The position numbers and the translations under genes were made by a program. Shown piece by piece: positions 18,201 to 24,205 of a DNA stretch of 64,000 bases (position 1 is the stretch's first letter; each line of letters opens with the position of its first letter). The stretch spans positions 1,920,001 through 1,984,000 of the forward strand of contig CBDCCK010000002.1 of assembly GCA_965214835.1 (NCBI GenBank). Direction: 5' to 3'. Source of the DNA: Nitrosopumilaceae archaeon (GTDB lineage Archaea > Thermoproteota > Nitrososphaeria > Nitrososphaerales > Nitrosopumilaceae). The notes beneath the pieces are model-generated. The model was not told where the DNA came from, made no database searches, and saw only the letters and a program-made list of their open reading frames with translations.

Positions 18201-20405
18201 TGCCATGCGGCGCGTGCCGTATGTGGGCCTCTTGTTGCCAATCTCCCTGACAAGCAAGACCGTCTGCGGATCCGGTTCTGTCGGCTTTTGCGGCTTTTTT
18301 ACGTGGTACCACGCAGTTCTGGAGGCGCCGCTGTACTGCAGTGTCTTGTCCATGCTCCAGCCCCTCTCCCTTAGCAGTATTGCAATGTTCACCTTTTGCC
18401 TGCCTCCAAGGTTTTTTTTAAAAGCGCATTGGCCACGGCATACTCGCCGATGATGTTTTTGAGCGACTCGTTCTCCTTTTGGAGCCTGCCTTCGGCCGTT
18501 GCAGGGCCGCTGCCTGACAGCGATGCGCGTCCGCCCTGCAAAAAGCGTTTCCTCCACTGGTAAAACGTCCTGGGGGAGAGGTTGTGGCGACGGCACAGCT
18601 CTGCCGTCTCGATGTTGGTATTGAGATGCTCCATGACTATCCCTATCTTGTCCTGCGTACTCCATATTTTCTTTGTCATATTTGTAATTCGACCTCCTTA
18701 TTCAAAAAGTGTGCATTGCAGATCGTTCCTTCTTTTTTGGGATCCGCACCAAGTATCCGACCCGCCCAACGGGACTGCCACACATGACGATGATACGATA
18801 ACCTACACGCCTGATGCAGACTATGCGGGAACCGACACGTTCGGATACACGGTATCTGACGGCACCAACACGGCGCAGGGCACCGTAACCGTTACAGTCA
18901 CGCGCGACAACAACGCCCCCGTCCTCGGCACGATAGGCGACCGGGCCGCGAAGGTGGGATTCCAGCTGAGCATAGCGCCCACCGTGACTGATGCCGATCC
19001 TACAGACACGCACATGTACTCCATAACGCGCGGCACGCTGCCGGAAGCCGCCGCGTTTTCCACGTCTGACGGCAGCATCACCTGGACGCCAGTACAGGCC
19101 GACGCAGGACAGACCCATACGGTCACCATAACCGTAGATGACGGCCGGGACGGCACCGATTCTGAGACCTTTGACATATCCGTGATGGATATTCCAAACG
19201 CCCCGCCGGTGGCGCCCTCAGAGACGGCGACCACCGCCGAGGACACGCCCGTCACCATAACTCCCACGATATCGGATCCCGACATGTCGGACACCCCGGT
19301 GATATCCGCGGTAGCCGACCCGCCCAACGGGACTGCCACACATGGCGACGATACGATAACCTACACGCCCGATGCAGACTATGAGGGAACCGACTCCTTC
19401 GGATACATGGTATCTGACGGAACGGACACGACAGATGGCACGATAACCGTTACAGTTACGCGCGCCAACAACGCCCCCGTCCTCGGTACCATAGGCGACC
19501 GGGACGCGACGGTGGGCGCACAGCTGACCATAACGCCTTCTGTGACTGATGCCGATACTACGGACGCGCACACGTTTACGATATCGCGCGGCACTCTGCC
19601 GGCAGCTGCTGCATTCTCCACGTCTGCCGGCAGCATCACCTGGACGCCCGTACAGGCCGATGCAGGACAGACCCATACTGTCACCATAACCGTAAATGAC
19701 GGACGCGGAGGCACCGATTCTGAGACCTTTGACATAGTAGTAACCGAACTGCTCGAGGCGGCCGGCGCCCACCTGGAATTTGAGAACGACCTGACCGACT
19801 CTTCTGGCGCCCACGGAGGCACCATACAGTCCGGCTCCGTATCATATGCGGCAGGCCCCGTCGGGCGGGCAGTCATGCTGGATAATACACACGTCACGCT
19901 TGCAGGGGAGCCGGACCTTGACTTTGACACCGACGAGGCCTTCAGCATAGCATTCTGGATAAACAAGGATCACGAGCCCTCCTCCACCGTCTCGCTGGTG
20001 TCAAAGTCCGAGCGCTTTTGGAGGCAGGGAACCGATATATGGTTCAACCCGAATGCCGGCGGCAAGGCATCCCTCAGACTGTCTGACGGCTCTGCATACA
20101 TGGAGATACGCACGCCTGGAGCGGTGGCAGACGGCACGTGGCACCACGTGGCATTCACGTATGACGGCAGCGGCACCCGTGCGGGCATGTCCGTATATGT
20201 GGACGGGCAACCCGTCACCGAGATCACCGCAGGCGCCACATCGTTGTCCGGCTCCATACTCAACGACCATCCGGTCGGTATCGGTGCCAGCAGCACCGGA
20301 CTGGATCCGGCAGGAAACACCGCCCTTGACGAGCTGCACATCAGGCCCGGCCAGATGAGCGCGTCCGAGGTATCCGCACTGCATGCTGCCGGATCATTGC
20401 CATAA
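15246..20405 (+). pseudogene. Large surface S8 subtilase with cadherin/Ig-like repeats and C-terminal LamG, split by IS3
   Basis: Triad VAIIDAG / HGTATA / GTSAAAPHVAG; removing 17481-18755 restores ISAV-SDPPNG as in the second repeat (ISAVADPPNG); start uncertain. Confidence 0.9.
17481..18751 (-). mobile_element. Complete IS3-family element (orfA 18389-18679, orfB ending 17541)
   Basis: TG...CA ends, 4-bp TSD agta, WETDITY / SDNGVRY / QNGHVESFH motifs. Confidence 0.95.
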
Positions 20406-20423
20406 TCACCAAGATTGGATGAT

Positions 20424-20563
20424 CCGAGAGATGATTCGAAACTAGAAACCGTACGAATTTTTCAAGTAATTTCACAGATAACTTGTATTTTGTTGGTGTT
20501 TTGGGCTGTCATGCAAATTCGTTCACACATAATCAGAATCTGCTAATTTGAGCCAACTCTCAG
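20424..20563 (-). repeat. Repeat family A copy
   Basis: Reverse-complement homolog of 4637-4779, 19 bp after the protease stop. Confidence 0.85.
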
Positions 20564-20639
20564 GCGCGGCGTAAGGCCCCTCATACGGCTCCTGACAAGC
20601 TGCACCACTGCAAGGGGCAAGGGCGCCGGCGGCAAGTGG

Positions 20640-20965
20640 GGCCGGCTGGTGCGATGGCAGCTCGGGGGCGGCCCCGGGGTGCCGGTTGGGGGATCTGTCA
20701 AAGGAGGAGAGGCAGGAGAACCTGCGGTACTGGAAGAGCACGGTCGGCTTCGGCAGCAGGTGGATCGTCGAGATCGTGATATCGGCCATAAAGCGCATGT
20801 TCGGCGAGGGTGTAATGGCCCTCAAGTGGTCCAATGTGGTGCAGGAGGTAAGGCTGAGGATATGGCCGTACAGCAGGTGGATCGCAGAGGCGGTGGCTGC
20901 CGTGTAGGAACCTGGCGCCGGCAGCGATCCGGAAGGATTGGCCGGGCCCTAGTCGGAGTTATGCA
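20640..20965 (+). mobile_element. IS5-family 3' remnant; right TIR split by IS110 (remainder 22413-22418)
   Basis: WKSTVGFGSRWIVEIVISAIKRMFGE; rejoined end ggagttatgCAacagac-tag resembles the end tagtttgttgcataac at 25812. Left limit approximate. Confidence 0.75.
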
Positions 20966-21145
20966 TCCATGGTAAAACGCCCGCCAGTAACATGGCGACG
21001 TTCCTTTCGTCTTCTGATCCGTGCCTAGTCGGCCGGGCCGTGCTTTATAGCTAACGCTAGCAATACGCACGAGCCAGTCCTGTCGCACCTGCCAGGGTGC
21101 GGGCGGATCATTGGGTGGGTGGGTGGGGGATGGAAGGTGGTAATC

Positions 21146-22223
21146 CTATGCCGTTCCCGCCAGTTCTGTCACCCTCTTGATCTTCTTGTCGTACAGGACA
21201 GCATTGCGCGATGAATACACAGTCTTTGTCGTCAGCATGTGCCAGATTATCCTGAGCATCTTGTTTGCAACATGCGTTATCGCTATGACGTGGTTGTTGC
21301 CGTTCCTTTTGCGGACCCTCTCGTAGAACTCCCTCATCCTGTCGTCGTGCTGTACGGCGACGTTGGCTATCTGGATCATCAGCCAGTTGATCCTGCGGTT
21401 TGCATCCTTTTTCATGTGGCCGTGGTACTCGCGTTCCCCCGACTGGTACACCCGGGGACACATGCCGGCCCAGGACACAAGCTGGTTCGGCGATGGAAAC
21501 CTGGCTATGTCACCGATCTCTGCTATCAGCAGCATTGCTGCAAAGGTGTCTATTCCCGTCATGCTCAACAGCAGCTTGGCATCCTCGTTCGATCCTGCCT
21601 GTCTTCCTATGTCCTCCCCTGCCTGGCCTATCTCCTCTGTGACGTGTACAATCCTCCTAGTGCAGCTTGCCAGTATCCTGTCATCGTTTGGCATGTTCAG
21701 CCTGGTATCGGAGATCTTCCGTATGGCCTTCTTGGAGTACATCGTGGATGCATCTATGGCTATATCGTACTTGTCAAGCCAAGCTGTGCAGCCCGTTTAT
21801 GACTGCGGTCCTCTCCTGCACCATCCGTATCCTGTACCTCATCAGCTCCCTGACATCCCTCAGCTCTGCTGATGCCACGTAGCATCGTGGTATCATTCCG
21901 GCCCTGAGCGTTTCGGCTATCTTCCTTGCATCTATCGGGTCAGTCTTTACGCTGGTCTCTGATACTATCTTCATCTTGAGGGTGTTTGCAAGCAGTATGG
22001 GGATATGCTGATCCTCAAACGCCCTGAACGTCTTTAGCCACATGTTGCCCGTTGACTCGCACGCGGCCTGGCACTTTTTGTACTCTTTTTTCAGTCGTGC
22101 AGCAAGCTTTGATGCCTCCTTGTACGTGTTGTTATACGAGCCCTCCTCTAGCACGTGTCCCTTGGCGTCGATGACGCACACTGCGCATTTTCTCTTTCCA
22201 ATGTCTATTCCTATGCTTCTCAA
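21146..22223 (-). pseudogene. IS110 DEDD recombinase, one frameshift near 21780
   Basis: GIDIGK, ACESTG, KTDPIDA in one frame; SWAGMCPRVYQSGE in the other; SD aaggaggtga. Confidence 0.9.
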
Positions 22224-22261
22224 TCCTTTTCTTTCACCTCCTTTCGGATATGGTTTGACAG

Positions 22262-22395
22262 ATCAGAAGCTGCATTCATCCATCAGTGCGCGTAGCACAG
22301 GAACACAGCAGCTCGGATATCCCCATTCAACAGGTAGTGCGCGAAGCACATGCATAACGAGGGGTTGATCCATCACCCTGGCTACGGCGGGGGCG
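22262..22395 (-). ncRNA. Predicted IS110 bridge RNA (target-binding and donor-binding loops)
   Basis: Two stems, each closing an internal loop around a GTGC-N5-GCAC hairpin; loop segments match the element junctions 8/8, 6/8, 7/8, 7/8. RNA ends approximate. Confidence 0.8.
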
Positions 22396-22522
22396 TTTTT
22401 ATCATGTGTTCAACAGACTAGACAGGAACACCATTTTTTATAGATCGATTGGCGAAAAAATCATGCCAATTTGTTCAAAACATTCAGACACTTAAAAGGG
22501 AGATACATTTTCAACTACTGTA

Positions 22523-23248
22523 GTGGAAGAAATAAGCACAAAAATTTCGGAGAGGGACGAAATGTTCAAGACTACTGCCTCCCACAACCATCCGGATCCC
22601 AAACTCGCATACCTGAACGGAGGAAAGATGATAATTGAGACCGTAACTGATATTTTGAAAAAATGGGGGCCGGAGTTGCTGAACGGCAAAAACATCCTAG
22701 ATTATGGGTGCGGCCATGGAAGGGTGGCCAGGCACATCAAGCGCCTAAACCCGGCAAAATTGGTATGCGCCGACGTTTGGGACGATGCAGTGGGCTTTTG
22801 CGCCAGAGAGTTCTCGGCAGATCCATTTGTTATCTCAGATGACAGCCCGATTTCTAGCAGGTGGCAGTCATTTTTTGACGTGGTCATCAGCATTTCAGTT
22901 TTTAGCCACCTTCCGCCCGCAAGGTTTGAGAGGAATTTGACGGCCCTGCAAAAGGCAATGAGGGGGGGGGGAATCCTGCTGTATACAACCCACGGGAATT
23001 TTTCAGCGAAAAAAAGGAGTCTGACCATCCCGGATTCAAATTTCAGATATGGGCCGGTTGGCGCAAAGCCCAACCATACTGATGGAAGGCTACCGGTGGA
23101 GGAATACAGCTTCATGTGCACCAACCCGGAGTACAACAAGAGCATGGTTTCCAAGGCAGGCTTGAGCCTGTTGGAATTCAGGGAGCAGGGAATAAATGAA
23201 CAGGATTTGTATGTTGTTAAGAAACCGCAGGGTACTGGATCATTCTAA
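22523..23248 (+). CDS. Class I SAM-dependent methyltransferase
   Basis: ILDYGCGHGR, FDVVISISVFSHL, MRGGGIL (G10 tract, in frame). Confidence 0.9.
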   Translation: MEEISTKISERDEMFKTTASHNHPDPKLAYLNGGKMIIETVTDILKKWGPELLNGKNILDYGCGHGRVARHIKRLNPAKLVCADVWDDAVGFCAREFSADPFVISDDSPISSRWQSFFDVVISISVFSHLPPARFERNLTALQKAMRGGGILLYTTHGNFSAKKRSLTIPDSNFRYGPVGAKPNHTDGRLPVEEYSFMCTNPEYNKSMVSKAGLSLLEFREQGINEQDLYVVKKPQGTGSF

Positions 23249-23428
23249 ACGACCTGTCTTTGAGGGCAGGGCATGACTCGGACTGCCGGTGTCCACATCA
23301 AAAAACGGAATCATGGTTTTGACATGTCGTGCCTGTTTTACACCTCGGCCCCCGTGCCCGGCCCTAACCGATTACAGAACCCAGGCATGAAATATACAAA
23401 TAATTAACTGTAATCCGACAAATCCTCC

Positions 23429-24205
23429 ATGGTGGCTCTGCCGTTTGCGGATTTGTGGCAAAATAAGGCACTGGTTGTGAGCTTTTCCTGGTATTTGATC
23501 AAGATACGCTACAAGGCAAACCACCTTGGTCTGATCTGGGCCGGACTGGAACCGATGCTGTTCTTTGTTTTCCTGCACCTAGTGTTTACAAGCATCAAAT
23601 TCGGGTCTGGGGACGACTTTTCAATATACCTGCTGACGGGAATCGTCCTCTATCATGCATTTGCAAAGGGTACTAACGCGGGACTCTCCAGCCTGAGGGA
23701 TAACGCGAACCTGGTCACATCGCTCAACATAAGAAGGGAGTTCTTTCCCGTCTCCTCCACCTCGGCCTCTGCCATCTTGCTGATGGTGGAAGTCGCGGTG
23801 TTTTTCATGATAATGCCGTTTATCGGGTTTACGCCGACGGCCGACATGATATTCTTGCCGCTGATATTGGGCCTGCTTCTCGTCCTGATCTTGGGGATGT
23901 CGTACATTCTGTCAATAGTCTATACGTATGTTACAGACATCAGGCCCCTGTGGGGGGTCATCGTGCAGGCGCTGTTTTTCATCACCCCTGTCTTTTGGCG
24001 TCTGGAGGATGCGCACGAGATCGCAGGAAGCATACAGATGGTGAATCCGATCGGACAACTGGTGGAGCTGGCGCACGGGGTGGTCATATATGACGTCCCG
24101 CCCGTAAGCGAGTGGGCCTATACCACTGCCATGATTTTCGGGATATTTGCATTCGGATACGTGCTGTTTCACAGGCTTGAGAAAAACATTGCGGAGAGAA
24201 TCTAG
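23429..24205 (+). CDS. wzm: Polysaccharide ABC exporter permease
   Basis: KIRYKANHLGLIWAGLEP, FFITPVFW, VNP motifs. Confidence 0.9.
   Translation: MVALPFADLWQNKALVVSFSWYLIKIRYKANHLGLIWAGLEPMLFFVFLHLVFTSIKFGSGDDFSIYLLTGIVLYHAFAKGTNAGLSSLRDNANLVTSLNIRREFFPVSSTSASAILLMVEVAVFFMIMPFIGFTPTADMIFLPLILGLLLVLILGMSYILSIVYTYVTDIRPLWGVIVQALFFITPVFWRLEDAHEIAGSIQMVNPIGQLVELAHGVVIYDVPPVSEWAYTTAMIFGIFAFGYVLFHRLEKNIAERI

What the first reader, a model, noticed from the sequence alone, without database searches (positions are those of the whole stretch)
20958..22421. IS110 bridge RNA readable by eye and programmed against an IS5 terminal repeat
Seen: the region upstream of the recombinase (minus strand) forms two loops. 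Loop 1 is CCCC-tcGTTATGCAt-GTGC(ttcgc)GCAC-tACCTGTTGaat-GGGG. Loop 2 is AGCTGC-TGTGTTCct-GTGC(tacgc)GCAC-tGATGGATGaat-GCAGCT. Loop 1 predicts target GTTATG-CA-ACAGGT and loop 2 predicts donor TGTGTT-CA-TCCATC. The actual junctions are the recombinants GTTATG-CA-TCCATG (20958) and TGTGTT-CA-ACAGAC (22405). Rejoining the flanks gives ggagttatgcaacagac-tag, the end of the adjacent IS5 remnant. Established: IS621-type bridge RNAs use this two-loop guide logic. Inference: a probably archaeal bridge recombinase with a CA core and sub-terminal IRs, whose guides read the strand opposite to the transposase, parasitising another transposon's TIR. One frameshift repair would give a testable programmable recombinase.
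Basis: partly seen in the sequence, partly recalled or inferred. Interest (0 to 1): 0.88.

Follow-up and report, generated by a model that had tools for sequence, protein, structure and literature searches.

The report
Archaeal bridge-RNA transposon homing on IS5 ends
This is a real RNA-guided (IS110-family) jumping gene in an ammonia-oxidiser-type archaeon whose two-loop guide RNA spells out its landing site, the end of another transposon; it is a clear natural example of a system already known from bacteria, not a new kind.

Summary
Window 20966-22412 (minus strand) is a 1447-bp IS110-family element. It has a 118-nt two-loop RNA upstream of a DEDD/Transposase_20 recombinase gene that is split by one extra base. 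The loop arms match the flanks (8/8 and 6/8) and the element's own ends (7/8 and 7/8). All 8 near-identical genomic copies sit at GTTATG-CA|ACAG, 8-9 bp inside the terminal repeat of an IS5-family element or its MITEs, and 31 empty sites exist. Sister subfamilies in the same genome, and relatives in other thaumarchaeal genomes and a Haloarcula plasmid, carry different arms that match their own flanks. The stems show compensatory changes. The genome is archaeal.

The "opposite strand" guide order is the published IS1111-type order. Targeting of another transposon's terminal repeat is known from IS4321/IS5075. I therefore call this a new member of a known kind, with a hybrid layout: IS1111-like sub-terminal repeats and arm order, but the RNA upstream of the gene.

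Three things are new here. The extra base is shared by 11 of 12 copies, which still show purifying selection. An intact paralogue exists, so no repair is needed for a test. About four ~370-bp miniature derivatives keep only the ends and the guide RNA.

The parts
20567..20965 (+). Remnant of an IS5-family element: the 3' part of its transposase gene plus the inner part of its terminal inverted repeat. It ends in GTTATG-CA.
   Evidence: blastn: 91% identity to positions 10-404 of the full copy at C2:189792-191189. That copy's 404-aa ORF hits NF033579 transpos_IS5_2 at 166.7 bits (cut-off 140) and PF01609.
20958..20965 (+). Left target half GTTATG plus core CA. In recombinase sense this is the right target, TG-CATAAC.
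   Evidence: Identical to the 5' arm of loop 1, GTTATGCA, 8/8. The same flank is found in 8 of 8 near-identical copies.
20966..22412 (-). IS110-family element of 1447 bp, counting one copy of the CA core.
   Evidence: The boundaries are set by 8 copies whose flanks diverge exactly here. Empty sites read GTTATG-CA-ACAG with a single CA.
20968..20985 (.). Sub-terminal inverted repeat, arm at the recombinase-3' end (CATGGTAAAACGCCCGCC).
   Evidence: Pairs with 22386-22406 (GGCGGGGGCGTTTTTATCATG) with small indels. The repeat changes in step at both ends in subfamilies B and C and in the miniature copies; subfamily C has 18 perfect bases.
20966..21145 (-). Roughly 180-nt non-coding region 3' of the recombinase gene, kept in the miniature derivatives. 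It contains GGATCAGAAG, which is complementary to the 3' strand of the guide RNA's closing stem.
   Evidence: inverted repeat I6: 21011-21022 with 22258-22269, 92%.
21146..21742 (-). Recombinase C-terminal part (Transposase_20 domain, with the GMCPRVYQSG serine motif).
   Evidence: PF02371 at 3e-26. The open frame continues upstream to DKYD, directly after the break.
21774..21788 (-). Frame break: CACAGCTTGGCTTGA. One extra G (plus-strand C at 21779/21780) relative to the intact paralogue. ORF1 ends GCT-TGA-C.
   Evidence: Alignment with L010. The same 30-nt string occurs in 11 of 12 copies; only L010 lacks the extra base. Contigs from runs of 3 studies span the site without gaps (table 8).
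21774..22223 (-). Recombinase N-terminal part (DEDD RuvC-like domain). TTG start, preceded by GGAGGTGA.
   Evidence: PF01548 at 1.2e-28. The motifs IGID, CESTG and KTDPIDAR align with the IS621 and ISCro4 chains (shown for the paralogue; the same motifs are in the ORF printed).
22257..22374 (-). Bridge (seek) RNA core: a closing stem (22374-22366 with 22265-22257) that encloses two stem-internal loop-hairpin units.
   Evidence: Covariance model R1 finds it upstream of the recombinase gene in 17 of 28 loci searched.
22321..22364 (-). Target-binding loop. 5' arm GTTATGCA (22358-22351); 3' arm ACCTGTTG (22335-22328).
   Evidence: The arms match the two flanks, and differ in subfamilies B, C and others in step with their flanks.
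22268..22313 (-). Donor-binding loop. 5' arm TGTGTTCC (22307-22300); 3' arm GATGGATG (22284-22277).
   Evidence: The arms match the two element ends 7/8 each. The 3' arm reads GATAGATG where the end reads CATAGATG (3 elements), and GATAGGTG where it reads CATAGGTG in genome G020.
22386..22410 (-). End of the element on the guide-RNA side (AACACATGATAAAAACGCCCCCGCC in RNA sense). It carries the second sub-terminal repeat arm and an A/T-rich box (GATAAAAA) that could be an archaeal TATA element.
   Evidence: Conserved in every subfamily. The promoter role is inference only.
22411..22421 (+). Core CA plus right target half ACAGAC plus TAG. These are the outer 9 bases of the IS5 terminal repeat.
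   Evidence: Rejoining gives GTTATGCAACAGACTAG. Full IS5 copies end GTTATGCAACAGTCTA / CTAGACTGTTGCATAAC.
22506..22520 (+). Unoccupied target of the sister subfamily B (CATTTT-CA-ACTACTG), at the end of another repeat family.
   Evidence: 23 such sites in the genome, one at C2:1942507. It matches the subfamily B arms CATTTTCA / CGTAGTTG.

Best explanation
The element is an active, or very recently active, IS110-family insertion sequence of a thaumarchaeon. It moves by bridge-RNA (seekRNA)-guided recombination.

A structured RNA of about 120 nt is encoded between the element's end and the recombinase gene. It presents two internal loops.
- In the first loop, the 5' arm (GTTATG-CA) pairs with the recombinase-sense strand of the flank at the gene's 3' end. 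The 3' arm (CCTGT-TG) pairs with the opposite strand of the other flank.
- The second loop reads the abutted element ends (TGTGTT-CA-TCCATG) in the same way.

A DEDD/serine recombinase exchanges strands at the shared CA dinucleotide. The empty site GTTATG-CA-ACAGG therefore becomes GTTATG-CA-[element]-CA-ACAGG, with no duplication.

The programmed site lies 8-9 bp inside the terminal inverted repeat of a resident IS5-family element and its ~80-bp MITEs. These supply dozens of harmless landing pads. Sister subfamilies in the same genome carry other arms that point at the ends of other repeat families.

Shown: the anatomy, the guide/flank and guide/end covariation, the stem covariation, the empty sites, the family membership of both transposases, and the archaeal host.

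Inferred: that the RNA is made (probably from an internal TATA-like box, and processed from the recombinase mRNA leader), that it binds the protein, and that a circle is formed.

The recombinase gene in this copy, and in 10 other copies, carries one extra base. I think it slightly more likely (about 50%) that these copies are moved in trans by the single intact paralogue, which has the same donor-loop arms and the same 8-nt termini. The alternative (about 40%) is that they make enzyme themselves.
For: Family:
- PF01548 and PF02371 in the two ORFs.
- The intact paralogue P0001 scores 234 bits on NF033542, 'IS110 family RNA-guided transposase'.
- The catalytic motifs align with the solved IS621 and ISCro4 chains.

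Copies and site:
- 8 copies at 98-100% identity, all flanked GTTATGCA|...|ACAG(G/A/T)C.
- 31 empty sites match GTTATGCAACA[AG]N, all at the outer end of three or four repeat families.
- Occupied sites have G at the 4th base after the core in 8 of 8 cases, against 9 of 31 empty sites (Fisher p=0.0004). That is the base the 3' arm specifies.

Covariation within the genome:
- Subfamily B has arms CATTTTCA/CGTAGTTG, with flanks CATTTTCA (8/8, L010) and AGTAGTTG (7/8).
- Subfamily C has arms TCTTCCCA/GACTTCTG, with flanks TCTTCCCA (8/8) and TACTTCTG (7/8).
- Permutation tests gave p=0.0006 and p=0.011.
- 23 empty sites for subfamily B and 65 for subfamily C lie at the ends of other repeats.

Covariation outside the genome:
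- In G359, two arm variants each match their own flanks on both sides.
- In G068, the 3' arm covaries with the flank.
- In G020, the arms GATAACCA/TTCATTTG compare with the flanks GTTATG (7/8) and TTCATTTG (8/8).
- A Haloarcula plasmid element (34.6% identical protein) shows the same layout by eye.

Structure. Model R1 finds the RNA in 17 of 28 relatives' loci, and not in the IS4321 control on R751.

Literature logic: PMC11208160 (passages) and PMC11187229 (abstract, sections 6 and 13, passages).
Against: - There is no direct evidence of RNA, circle or movement. No RNA run is listed, and contigs from 4 runs showed no joints; neither can show absence.
- The single-sequence fold is not more stable than shuffles (z=-0.93).
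- Rfam has no matching family (0 hits).
- This copy's recombinase frame is broken.
- Several copies match their arms poorly. Examples: L009 and L012 on the recombinase-3' side (4/8); the miniature L023 (3/8 and 3/8); C2:2665851 (2/8 on one side). Either decay, recombination between copies or tolerance of mismatch must be invoked.
- The first base of the loop 1 3' arm mismatches in all four groups with a well-matched 3' arm: A, B, C and the ATTTGTTG variant.
- The last base of the donor loop's 5' arm (C) mismatches the core A in 20 of 24 instances.
- All compensatory stem changes come from one subfamily (2 of the 15 sequences).
Confidence: 0.9

Rival explanations
1. The frameshifted copies are autonomous. 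The extra base is read through by +1 recoding at GCU-UGA-C, which would give ...NGLHSLA-DKYD..., the same length as the intact paralogue's ...NGLHSLL-DKYD. Alternatively the two halves work as a two-piece enzyme. On this view the 'defect' is a regulated feature.
For: - 11 of 12 copies share the identical 30-nt site, including copies 8-11% diverged (L009, L012).
- L001 vs L009, both frameshifted, give dN/dS of 0.34 and 0.32 in the two halves. Synonymous changes are 40 of 89, against 22% expected (p=2e-6; p=0.002 if 30% is assumed).
- Within the 8 young copies, changes are 17 synonymous: 22 non-synonymous: 1 stop (p=0.004, or 0.06 with a 30% neutral fraction).
- 7 of 10 full-length frameshifted copies have no further break.
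- Divergence around the site (5 per 100 nt) is not an outlier against the element mean of about 9, so there is no obvious conversion tract.
- The A-type guide arms arose in the frameshifted lineage.
- +1 shifts at a sense codon followed by a stop or a slow codon are known elsewhere: antizyme, Ty3, prfB. These are recalled, not checked here.
Against: - There is no slippery re-pairing (GCU to CUU), and no stimulator was identified.
- No programmed frameshift is reported for the IS110 family. One full-text search ('IS110 family' + 'programmed ribosomal frameshift') returned 1 irrelevant paper.
- Recombination between co-resident copies does occur: the first ~100 nt of L009 and L010 show no differences (2 in the next overlapping 100-nt window), against about 12% elsewhere. 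The break could therefore have spread by recombination, and the low dN/dS could date from intact ancestors.
- An intact paralogue is available to act in trans.
- With transition bias allowed for, the within-group signal is not significant.
Confidence: 0.4
2. All copies of this subfamily in the genome are dead relics. The identical flanks only reflect duplication of larger IS5-plus-IS110 composite units, not repeated site-specific insertion.
For: - The recombinase frame is broken in 11 of 12 copies.
- Some flanks recur. Three copies share the left flank 'taggcacgaaaaactggct...', and two share 'ccgg.ag.gatccggaag.attgg...'.
- In G020, two copies share both flanks.
Against: - Beyond the 9-bp target half, the sequence on the other side is different in all 8 copies.
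- The recurring left flanks are the ends of the target elements themselves. These also occur empty 31 times.
- The copies are 98-100% identical.
- Occupied sites are the G-variant subset that the arm specifies.
- Subfamilies with other arms sit in other repeats.
Confidence: 0.07
3. The site is chosen by the protein recognising the IS5 terminal repeat. The loop matches are leftovers of earlier nested insertions, not guides.
For: Many transposases and site-specific recombinases read DNA directly. No RNA was observed here.
Against: - The arms change while the scaffold stems, spacing and 'aat' linkers stay fixed, in at least 5 arm classes within this genome and in G020, G068, G359 and Haloarcula.
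- The recombinases of subfamilies A and B are about 80-83% identical over the C-terminal half, yet land in unrelated sequences.
- For this family, RNA guidance has been shown experimentally (PMC11208160 and PMC11187229; abstracts and passages).
Confidence: 0.03

Closest known systems
IS621 / ISEc21-type bridge (seek) RNA elements (IS110 group)
   Same: - DEDD plus Transposase_20 recombinase.
- A guide RNA upstream of the gene with two internal loops. Each loop has a 5' arm and a 3' arm that end at a shared dinucleotide core, one loop for the target and one for the abutted ends.
- No target duplication (PMC11208160 passages).
   Different: [quoted passage not shown] - IS621-type elements have sub-terminal repeats of only 2-3 bp; here they are 9-18 bp.
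- Protein similarity is weak (37.9 bits to 8wt6).
- The core is CA rather than IS621's core (CT, recalled).
- The host is an archaeon.
IS1111-group elements with seekRNA (ISEc11, ISKpn4, ISPa11)
   Same: - Sub-terminal inverted repeats.
- The seekRNA arm complementary to the top strand lies 5' of the bottom-strand match (PMC11187229).
- The GL-P----SG motif: GLCPRVYQSG in the paralogue.
   Different: - Their RNA lies downstream of the recombinase gene; here it lies upstream.
- Identity to the IS4321 recombinase is 22% (59.7 bits, full length). That is no closer than to other IS110-family proteins (ISKpn2-type at 26%, 81 bits), so group membership is unresolved.
IS4321 / IS5075
   Same: IS110-family (IS1111-group) elements with sub-terminal repeats that insert at one position inside the terminal inverted repeat of another transposon (the Tn21 family).
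   Different: - They are bacterial and plasmid-borne, with other targets.
- I know this only from the title of Partridge & Hall 2003 in a reference list and from the R751 annotation; the paper was not read.
- Here several co-resident subfamilies each aim at a different repeat family's end.
ISMtsp17, ISHvo10, ISAcp5 (exceptions listed by Siddiquee et al.)
   Same: IS1111 relatives with the long non-coding region upstream (ISMtsp17) or at both ends (ISHvo10, ISAcp5) (PMC11187229 section 6). The element here has about 190 nt upstream and about 180 nt downstream.
   Different: I had none of their sequences, so neither relatedness nor their arm order was tested.
ISPpu9 / ssr9 modules of Pseudomonas putida
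   Same: Short non-coding modules flanked by IS110-family ends that spread using the element's recombinase (PMC12288879, abstract and passages).
   Different: ssr9 is a passenger sRNA that is not needed for transposition. The ~370-bp miniatures here are internal deletions that keep the guide RNA itself plus both ends.

Membership tests
IS110 family (sensu ISfinder: DEDD recombinase elements, bridge/seek RNA guided) | N-terminal DEDD_Tnp_IS110 domain and C-terminal Transposase_20 domain | tested here: met
   PF01548 at 1.2e-28 and PF02371 at 3e-26 in the two ORFs. The paralogue scores 234 bits on NF033542, cut-off 140.
IS110 family (sensu ISfinder: DEDD recombinase elements, bridge/seek RNA guided) | Catalytic D-E-D-D and the SG serine retained | tested here: met
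   IGID, CESTG, KTDPIDAR and YQSG align with the same motifs of IS621 (8wt6) and ISCro4 (9t56). All are present in the window ORFs. That these are the catalytic residues is recalled knowledge.
IS110 family (sensu ISfinder: DEDD recombinase elements, bridge/seek RNA guided) | Site-specific insertion at a dinucleotide core without target duplication | tested here: met
   CA is present at both junctions in the 8 copies and occurs once in 31 empty sites.
IS110 family (sensu ISfinder: DEDD recombinase elements, bridge/seek RNA guided) | Non-coding RNA with loops whose arms covary with target and donor | tested here: met
   p=0.0006 and 0.011; structure; other genomes.
IS110 family (sensu ISfinder: DEDD recombinase elements, bridge/seek RNA guided) | Circular intermediate with abutted ends; RNA bound to the recombinase | not testable with these tools
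   Only assembled contigs of public runs were available. No joints were seen and no RNA run was listed.
IS110 group proper (IS621/ISEc21 type) | Guide RNA upstream of the recombinase gene | tested here: met
   RNA core at 22374-22257, gene start at 22223, same strand.
IS110 group proper (IS621/ISEc21 type) | [quoted passage not shown] | tested here: not met
   Here the 5' arm GTTATGCA is the complement of TGCATAAC on the top strand at the far end. The 3' arm ACCTGTTG equals the top strand of the RNA-side flank, against the rule stated in PMC11208160.
IS110 group proper (IS621/ISEc21 type) | No sub-terminal inverted repeats, or only 2-3 bp | tested here: not met
   9 perfect bases (about 17 with indels) in this copy; 18 perfect in subfamily C.
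IS1111 group | Sub-terminal inverted repeats of about 7-17 bp | tested here: met
   The arms start 6-8 nt from each terminus and change together in each subfamily.
IS1111 group | The seekRNA arm complementary to the top strand precedes the bottom-strand match | tested here: met
   against PMC11187229.
IS1111 group | Long non-coding region / RNA downstream of the recombinase gene | tested here: not met
   The RNA is upstream. The paper lists rare exceptions.
IS1111 group | Recombinase related over its full length to that of IS1111-type elements | tested here: inconclusive
   BLASTP vs IS4321 Tnp of R751: full length, 22% identity, 59.7 bits. This is not closer than other IS110-family hits. No tree with labelled references was built.
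IS5 family (the target element) | DDE transposase of IS5 type, with terminal inverted repeats | tested here: met
   NF033579 at 166.7 bits (cut-off 140), PF01609 and PF13737. The ends read CTAGACTGTTGCATAAC... and ...GTTATGCAACAGTCTA.

The most novel reading that the evidence does not exclude
The one-base 'frameshift' shared by 11 of 12 copies is not a lesion. It is a recoding site (+1 at GCU-UGA-C) or a natural split of the recombinase that the element needs or tolerates. That would be the first programmed frameshift or two-piece enzyme in the IS110 family, and it would be in a thaumarchaeon. In addition, this archaeal clade is a distinct architectural type: IS1111-like ends and arm order, with an upstream two-loop RNA. 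It spawns miniature elements that carry only their own guide RNA, and it partitions the genome's other transposon ends among reprogrammed subfamilies.
Probability: 0.35. Interest if true: 0.7.

Novelty: new member of a known kind. Interest (0 to 1): 0.5.

Why it matters
Bridge recombinases are being developed as programmable tools for inserting DNA. Almost all the mechanistic work uses bacterial IS621-type enzymes.

This locus offers a compact archaeal system whose guide code can be read directly. One genome supplies at least three natural reprogrammings (A, B, C), each with tens of empty sites. It also supplies an intact enzyme gene, and single-base evidence of guide specificity: 8 of 8 occupied sites have G, against 9 of 31 empty sites. 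That makes a ready-made test set for the rules of arm length, core and mismatch tolerance in a lineage with IS1111-type strand order but an IS621-like two-loop RNA.

Biologically, it shows RNA-guided elements in ammonia-oxidiser-type archaea using the ends of other transposons and MITEs as safe landing pads, disabling those ends in the process. It also raises a testable question: is the conserved frame break regulatory?

None of this changes the known picture of the family.

Tried and rejected
- Rfam (evalue mode, 20000-23500): 0 matches. No curated family covers this RNA.
- Single-sequence folding: the expected shape, but z=-0.93. The energy argument was dropped in favour of covariation.
- The repeat finder did not report the sub-terminal repeats, because the arms differ by small indels. 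They were read from aligned ends instead.
- The search for related loci in genome contigs gave only 1 locus. The genome search over 401 genomes of the phylum gave the relatives that were used.
- Sequencing runs: no RNA holder is listed. Logan contigs of 4 runs (3 studies) laid on 20700-22700 showed no joints, so there is no circle junction and no empty-site contig. Contigs cannot show rare forms, so this says nothing either way. They did span the frame break without gaps.
- Group assignment by similarity: P0001 vs IS4321 Tnp, vs PDB chains and vs plasmid-borne named elements are all at 22-26% identity. This is inconclusive, and no labelled tree was built.
- Model R1 did not find the Haloarcula RNA. 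Its layout was read by eye, so that case is weaker.
- Gene conversion as the reason for the shared frame break: the sliding divergence shows no special tract at the site, but recombination elsewhere between copies means it is not excluded.
- Literature: searches found no paper on bridge RNAs of thaumarchaeal elements, on guide-carrying miniature IS110 derivatives, or on frameshifting in IS110. This covers only the held library. Supplementary tables and figures of PMC11208160 and PMC11187229 were closed, and they may list archaeal elements and exceptions. The Oct 2026 preprint 10.64898/2026.10.21.760802 (passages) mined IS110-adjacent RNAs across GTDB and metagenomes, so this RNA may already sit in its clusters.


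Full report
**What is in the window**

The plus strand reads ...ggaGTTATG-CA-TCCATGgtaaaacgcc... at 20958, and ...atcaTGTGTT-CA-ACAGACtag... at 22405.

Between these points, on the minus strand, lie two ORFs:
- 22223-21774 (149 aa) matches DEDD_Tnp_IS110 (PF01548, 1.2e-28).
- 21742-21146 (198 aa) matches Transposase_20 (PF02371, 3e-26).

I place them at 22364-22321 and 22313-22268. A closing stem (22374-22366 with 22265-22257) encloses both. The minimum-energy and centroid folds show this shape. The energy is not better than that of shuffled sequence (z=-0.93), so the fold alone proves nothing. Rfam has no match.

**Copies and insertion site**

The window's genome is 3.22 Mb in 2 contigs, and the window is C2:1920001-1984000. 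It holds 8 copies at 98-100% identity, one 841-bp fragment, diverged copies at 92%, 89% (in pieces), 85% and about 66%, and many short pieces.

In all 8 near-identical copies the element starts after GTTATGCA and is followed by ACAG(G/A/T)C. Beyond that, the right-hand sequence is different in every copy.

The rejoined site GTTATGCAACA[AG]N occurs 31 times uninterrupted. It is always the outermost part of one of a few repeat families. Two of these families are the two ends of a 1.4-1.5-kb element with terminal repeats CTAGACTGTTGCATAAC. That element's 404-aa ORF passes the NCBIfam IS5 model NF033579 (166.7 bits, cut-off 140) and hits PF01609. The others are the ends of an ~80-bp MITE with the same termini (C2:3110702-3110783).

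In the window, the IS5 copy is a 399-bp remnant at 20567-20965. Its last 9 bases, ACAGACTAG, resume at 22413.

So the element sits 8-9 bp inside the terminal repeat of an IS5-family element, with one CA at each junction and one CA in the empty site. This is conservative exchange at a dinucleotide core.

**Are the loops guides?**

For the window copy:
- The 5' arm of loop 1 equals the left flank plus core, 8/8.
- The reverse complement of the 3' arm equals core plus right flank, 6/8. It is 7/8 in the 6 of 8 copies that have ACAGGC.
- The loop 2 arms equal the two ends plus core, 7/8 each.

The stronger test is variation. I collected 24 instances of the RNA in the genome (nhmmer; alignment) and tabulated arms, flanks and ends.
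- Subfamily B (L010, L009, L012) has arms CATTTTCA / CGTAGTTG. All three have the flank AGTAGTTG (7/8 in L010 and L009; 5/8 in L012, whose arm has a 2-nt deletion). L010 also has the flank CATTTTCA (8/8).
- Subfamily C has arms TCTTCCCA / GACTTCTG and flanks TACTTCTG (7/8), TCTTCCCA (8/8) and TTTTCCCA (7/8).
- A variant 3' arm, ATTTGTTG (C2:639991), sits at GTTTGTTG. That is the CAACAAAC variant of the IS5 end.
- The donor loop's 3' arm is GATGGATG where the end is CATGGATG, and GATAGATG where the end is CATAGATG (3 elements).

Shuffling arms against flanks gives p=0.0006 (16 distinct pairs) and p=0.011 (11 distinct pairs). Decayed copies were included.

Not every copy fits:
- L009 and L012 match only 4/8 on the recombinase-3' side.
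- One subfamily C copy matches 2/8 on one side.
- The miniature L023 matches 3/8 and 3/8.
- The first base of the loop 1 3' arm mismatches in all four groups with a well-matched 3' arm (A, B, C and the ATTTGTTG variant).

Two more lines of evidence:
- Occupied A-type sites have G at the fourth base after the core in 8 of 8 cases, against 9 of 31 empty sites (Fisher p=0.0004). That is the base the arm specifies.
- The B and C arms also point at repeat ends. CATTTT-CA-ACTACTG occurs 23 times and CTTCC-CA-GAAGT 65 times, in each case at the edge of other repeat families. One B-type empty site lies in the window, at 22506-22520.

**Structure**

I aligned 15 distinct RNAs. My five-helix structure has 96.3% of 405 cells paired, against 25-53% when the 3' partners are slid. 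Five of 27 pairs keep pairing through changes on both sides, and 0 of 500 shuffles reach the covariation score. RNAalifold independently returns the same helices. One caveat: all the compensatory changes come from subfamily C (2 sequences).

**Other genomes**

The intact paralogue's protein is P0001 (359 aa). Its best outside relatives are at about 62% identity, unnamed. A Nitrosopumilus MAG protein is at 50%, and a Nitrosopumilaceae MAG locus matches its first 96 residues at 85%.

Among 401 genomes sampled from the phylum, 12 (including this one) have a match at E<=1e-40. Ten of 56 sampled genomes of the same family have one.

A covariance model built from the 15 RNAs finds a full-length match, always just upstream of the recombinase gene, in 17 of 28 loci searched, plus one partial match. 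It finds none in the R751/IS4321 control or in the Haloarcula locus.

- In G359, two arm variants (L040/L056 vs L062) each match their own flanks on both sides.
- In G068, the 3' arm differs between copies in step with the flank.
- In G020, the arms GATAACCA / TTCATTTG meet the flanks GTTATG (7/8) and TTCATTTG (8/8), and the donor 3' arm GATAGGTG meets the end CATAGGTG.
- A Haloarcula plasmid element (34.6% identity) shows by eye the same layout: sub-terminal repeats, the 3' arm GAGATTG equal to its flank, and the 5' arm TATCAACA against the flank TTGGTA.

The genome is archaeal. Archaeal SSU and LSU models win their clans.

**How it compares with what is known**

Siddiquee et al. (PMC11187229; abstract, sections 6 and 13 and passages read) report exactly this difference between families. 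In IS1111-type seekRNAs the top-strand complement comes first; in the IS110 type the order is reversed. They also give three further points:
- IS1111 elements have sub-terminal inverted repeats.
- The GL-P----S(t)G motif is an IS1111 mark.
- A few IS1111 relatives have the long non-coding region upstream (ISMtsp17) or at both ends (ISHvo10, ISAcp5).

The present element has sub-terminal repeats that change together at both ends in every subfamily. It has GLCPRVYQSG/GMCPRVYQSG, the IS1111 arm order, an upstream RNA of IS621-like two-loop form, and about 180 nt of conserved non-coding sequence downstream.

Similarity to the IS4321 recombinase is 22%, 59.7 bits. That is no better than to other family members, so I leave group membership open.

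Insertion into another transposon's terminal repeat is the published behaviour of IS4321/IS5075 (title only). Archaeal IS110 recombinases are known: 662 are counted in 10.1101/2024.06.21.599552 (passages). IS110-adjacent RNAs have been mined at scale (10.64898/2026.10.21.760802, passages). Hence my call: a new member of a known kind.

**The frame break**

Relative to L010, the window copy has one extra G: CACAGCTTGGCTTGAC against CACAGCCTGCTTGAC. The same 30-nt string is in 11 of 12 copies, including L009 (92%) and L012 (89%). Only L010 is intact. Contigs from runs of three studies cover the site without a gap, so it is not an assembly error of this genome.

ORF1 ends GCT-TGA-C. Skipping one base there gives HSLA-DKYD, in register with L010's HSLL-DKYD.

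Evidence on selection:
- L001 and L009 both carry the break, yet give dN/dS of 0.34 and 0.32. Synonymous changes are 40 of 89, against 22% expected (p=2e-6; p=0.002 if 30% is assumed).
- Within the 8 young copies, the changes are 17 synonymous, 22 non-synonymous and 1 stop (p=0.004, or 0.06 with a 30% neutral fraction).
- Divergence near the break is unremarkable.
- The first ~100 nt of L009 and L010 show no differences (2 in the next overlapping 100-nt window), while the rest differs by about 12%. Copies therefore do recombine. This weakens the inference and also shows that guide modules are exchanged between copies.

I weigh trans-mobilisation by the intact paralogue at about 50%. Its donor-loop arms and 8-nt termini are identical. 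I weigh self-expression by recoding or as a split enzyme at about 40%.

**Miniature derivatives**

Four elements of 366-372 bp keep the RNA-side end, the whole guide RNA and the ~190-nt far end, but no recombinase gene. They are at C2:639991, 2139579, 2955986 and 3124520. Each has different loop 1 arms. They are 81-94% similar to the full element in the shared part, so they are not recent. Two full-text searches found no description of such guide-carrying miniatures.

**Verdict**

The mechanism is the known bridge/seek-RNA mechanism. The interest lies in the archaeal host, the hybrid layout, the several natural reprogrammings against other transposons' ends, the conserved frame break and the miniatures. 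Interest 0.5.

Noticed in passing
window 22506-22520 (C2:1942506-1942520): An unoccupied target of sister subfamily B (CATTTT-CA-ACTACTG) lies about 95 bp from the element, at the end of another repeat (...cagacacttaaaagggagatac). There are 23 such sites in the genome, at the ends of two flank families. These are probably the two ends of another IS/MITE family.
   Followed up: partly
C2:189792-191189 and C2:2913907-2915412 (L033): The IS5-family transposase gene carries an in-frame tandem repeat of an 18-residue unit (SIKKEEEQDCPDIVDTIK). The copy number differs between copies (open frames of 411 vs 447 aa).
   Followed up: no
window 21011-21022 with 22258-22269: The non-coding region 3' of the recombinase contains ACGGATCAGAAG, complementary (92%) to the 3' strand of the guide RNA's closing stem. 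The GGATCAGA(A/G)G motif is kept in subfamily C, in the miniatures and in G020. It could be a regulatory pairing or a protein site.
   Followed up: no
C2:639991-640363, 2139579-2139947, 2955616-2955986, 3124154-3124520: Miniature derivatives of about 370 bp that keep both ends and the guide RNA but lack the recombinase gene. Each has different target-loop arms.
   Followed up: partly
C2:640363, 635704, 3124154, 2955616, 1517777 (flanks): Several copies and miniatures abut a further repeat with ends ...TCGCCTAATTC / GGAATTAGGCGAC (a ~130-bp inverted-repeat element). Their arms match it only partly, for example ACGCGACA against the flank ACGCAGCA. This could be a fourth target class, or a product of recombination between copies.
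   Followed up: no
L036 and L053 (genome G020): Two copies lack the first 8 nt of the RNA-side end (AACACATG) that a third copy (L047) has, yet their 3' target arm matches the abutting flank 8/8. Both sit in the same short inverted-repeat element, whose end begins GTTATGCCTGTAGGAC.
   Followed up: partly
L009 vs L010 (C2:1517774-1519223, 513238-514651): The first ~100 nt (end plus target loop) show no differences between these two copies (2 in the next overlapping 100-nt window), while the remainder differs by about 12%. The guide module has been exchanged between subfamilies by recombination.
   Followed up: partly
window 18582-20405: A long ORF (607 aa) with internally repeated, Thr/Asp-rich, Ig-like segments ends just upstream of the IS5 remnant. 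It was not examined.
   Followed up: no
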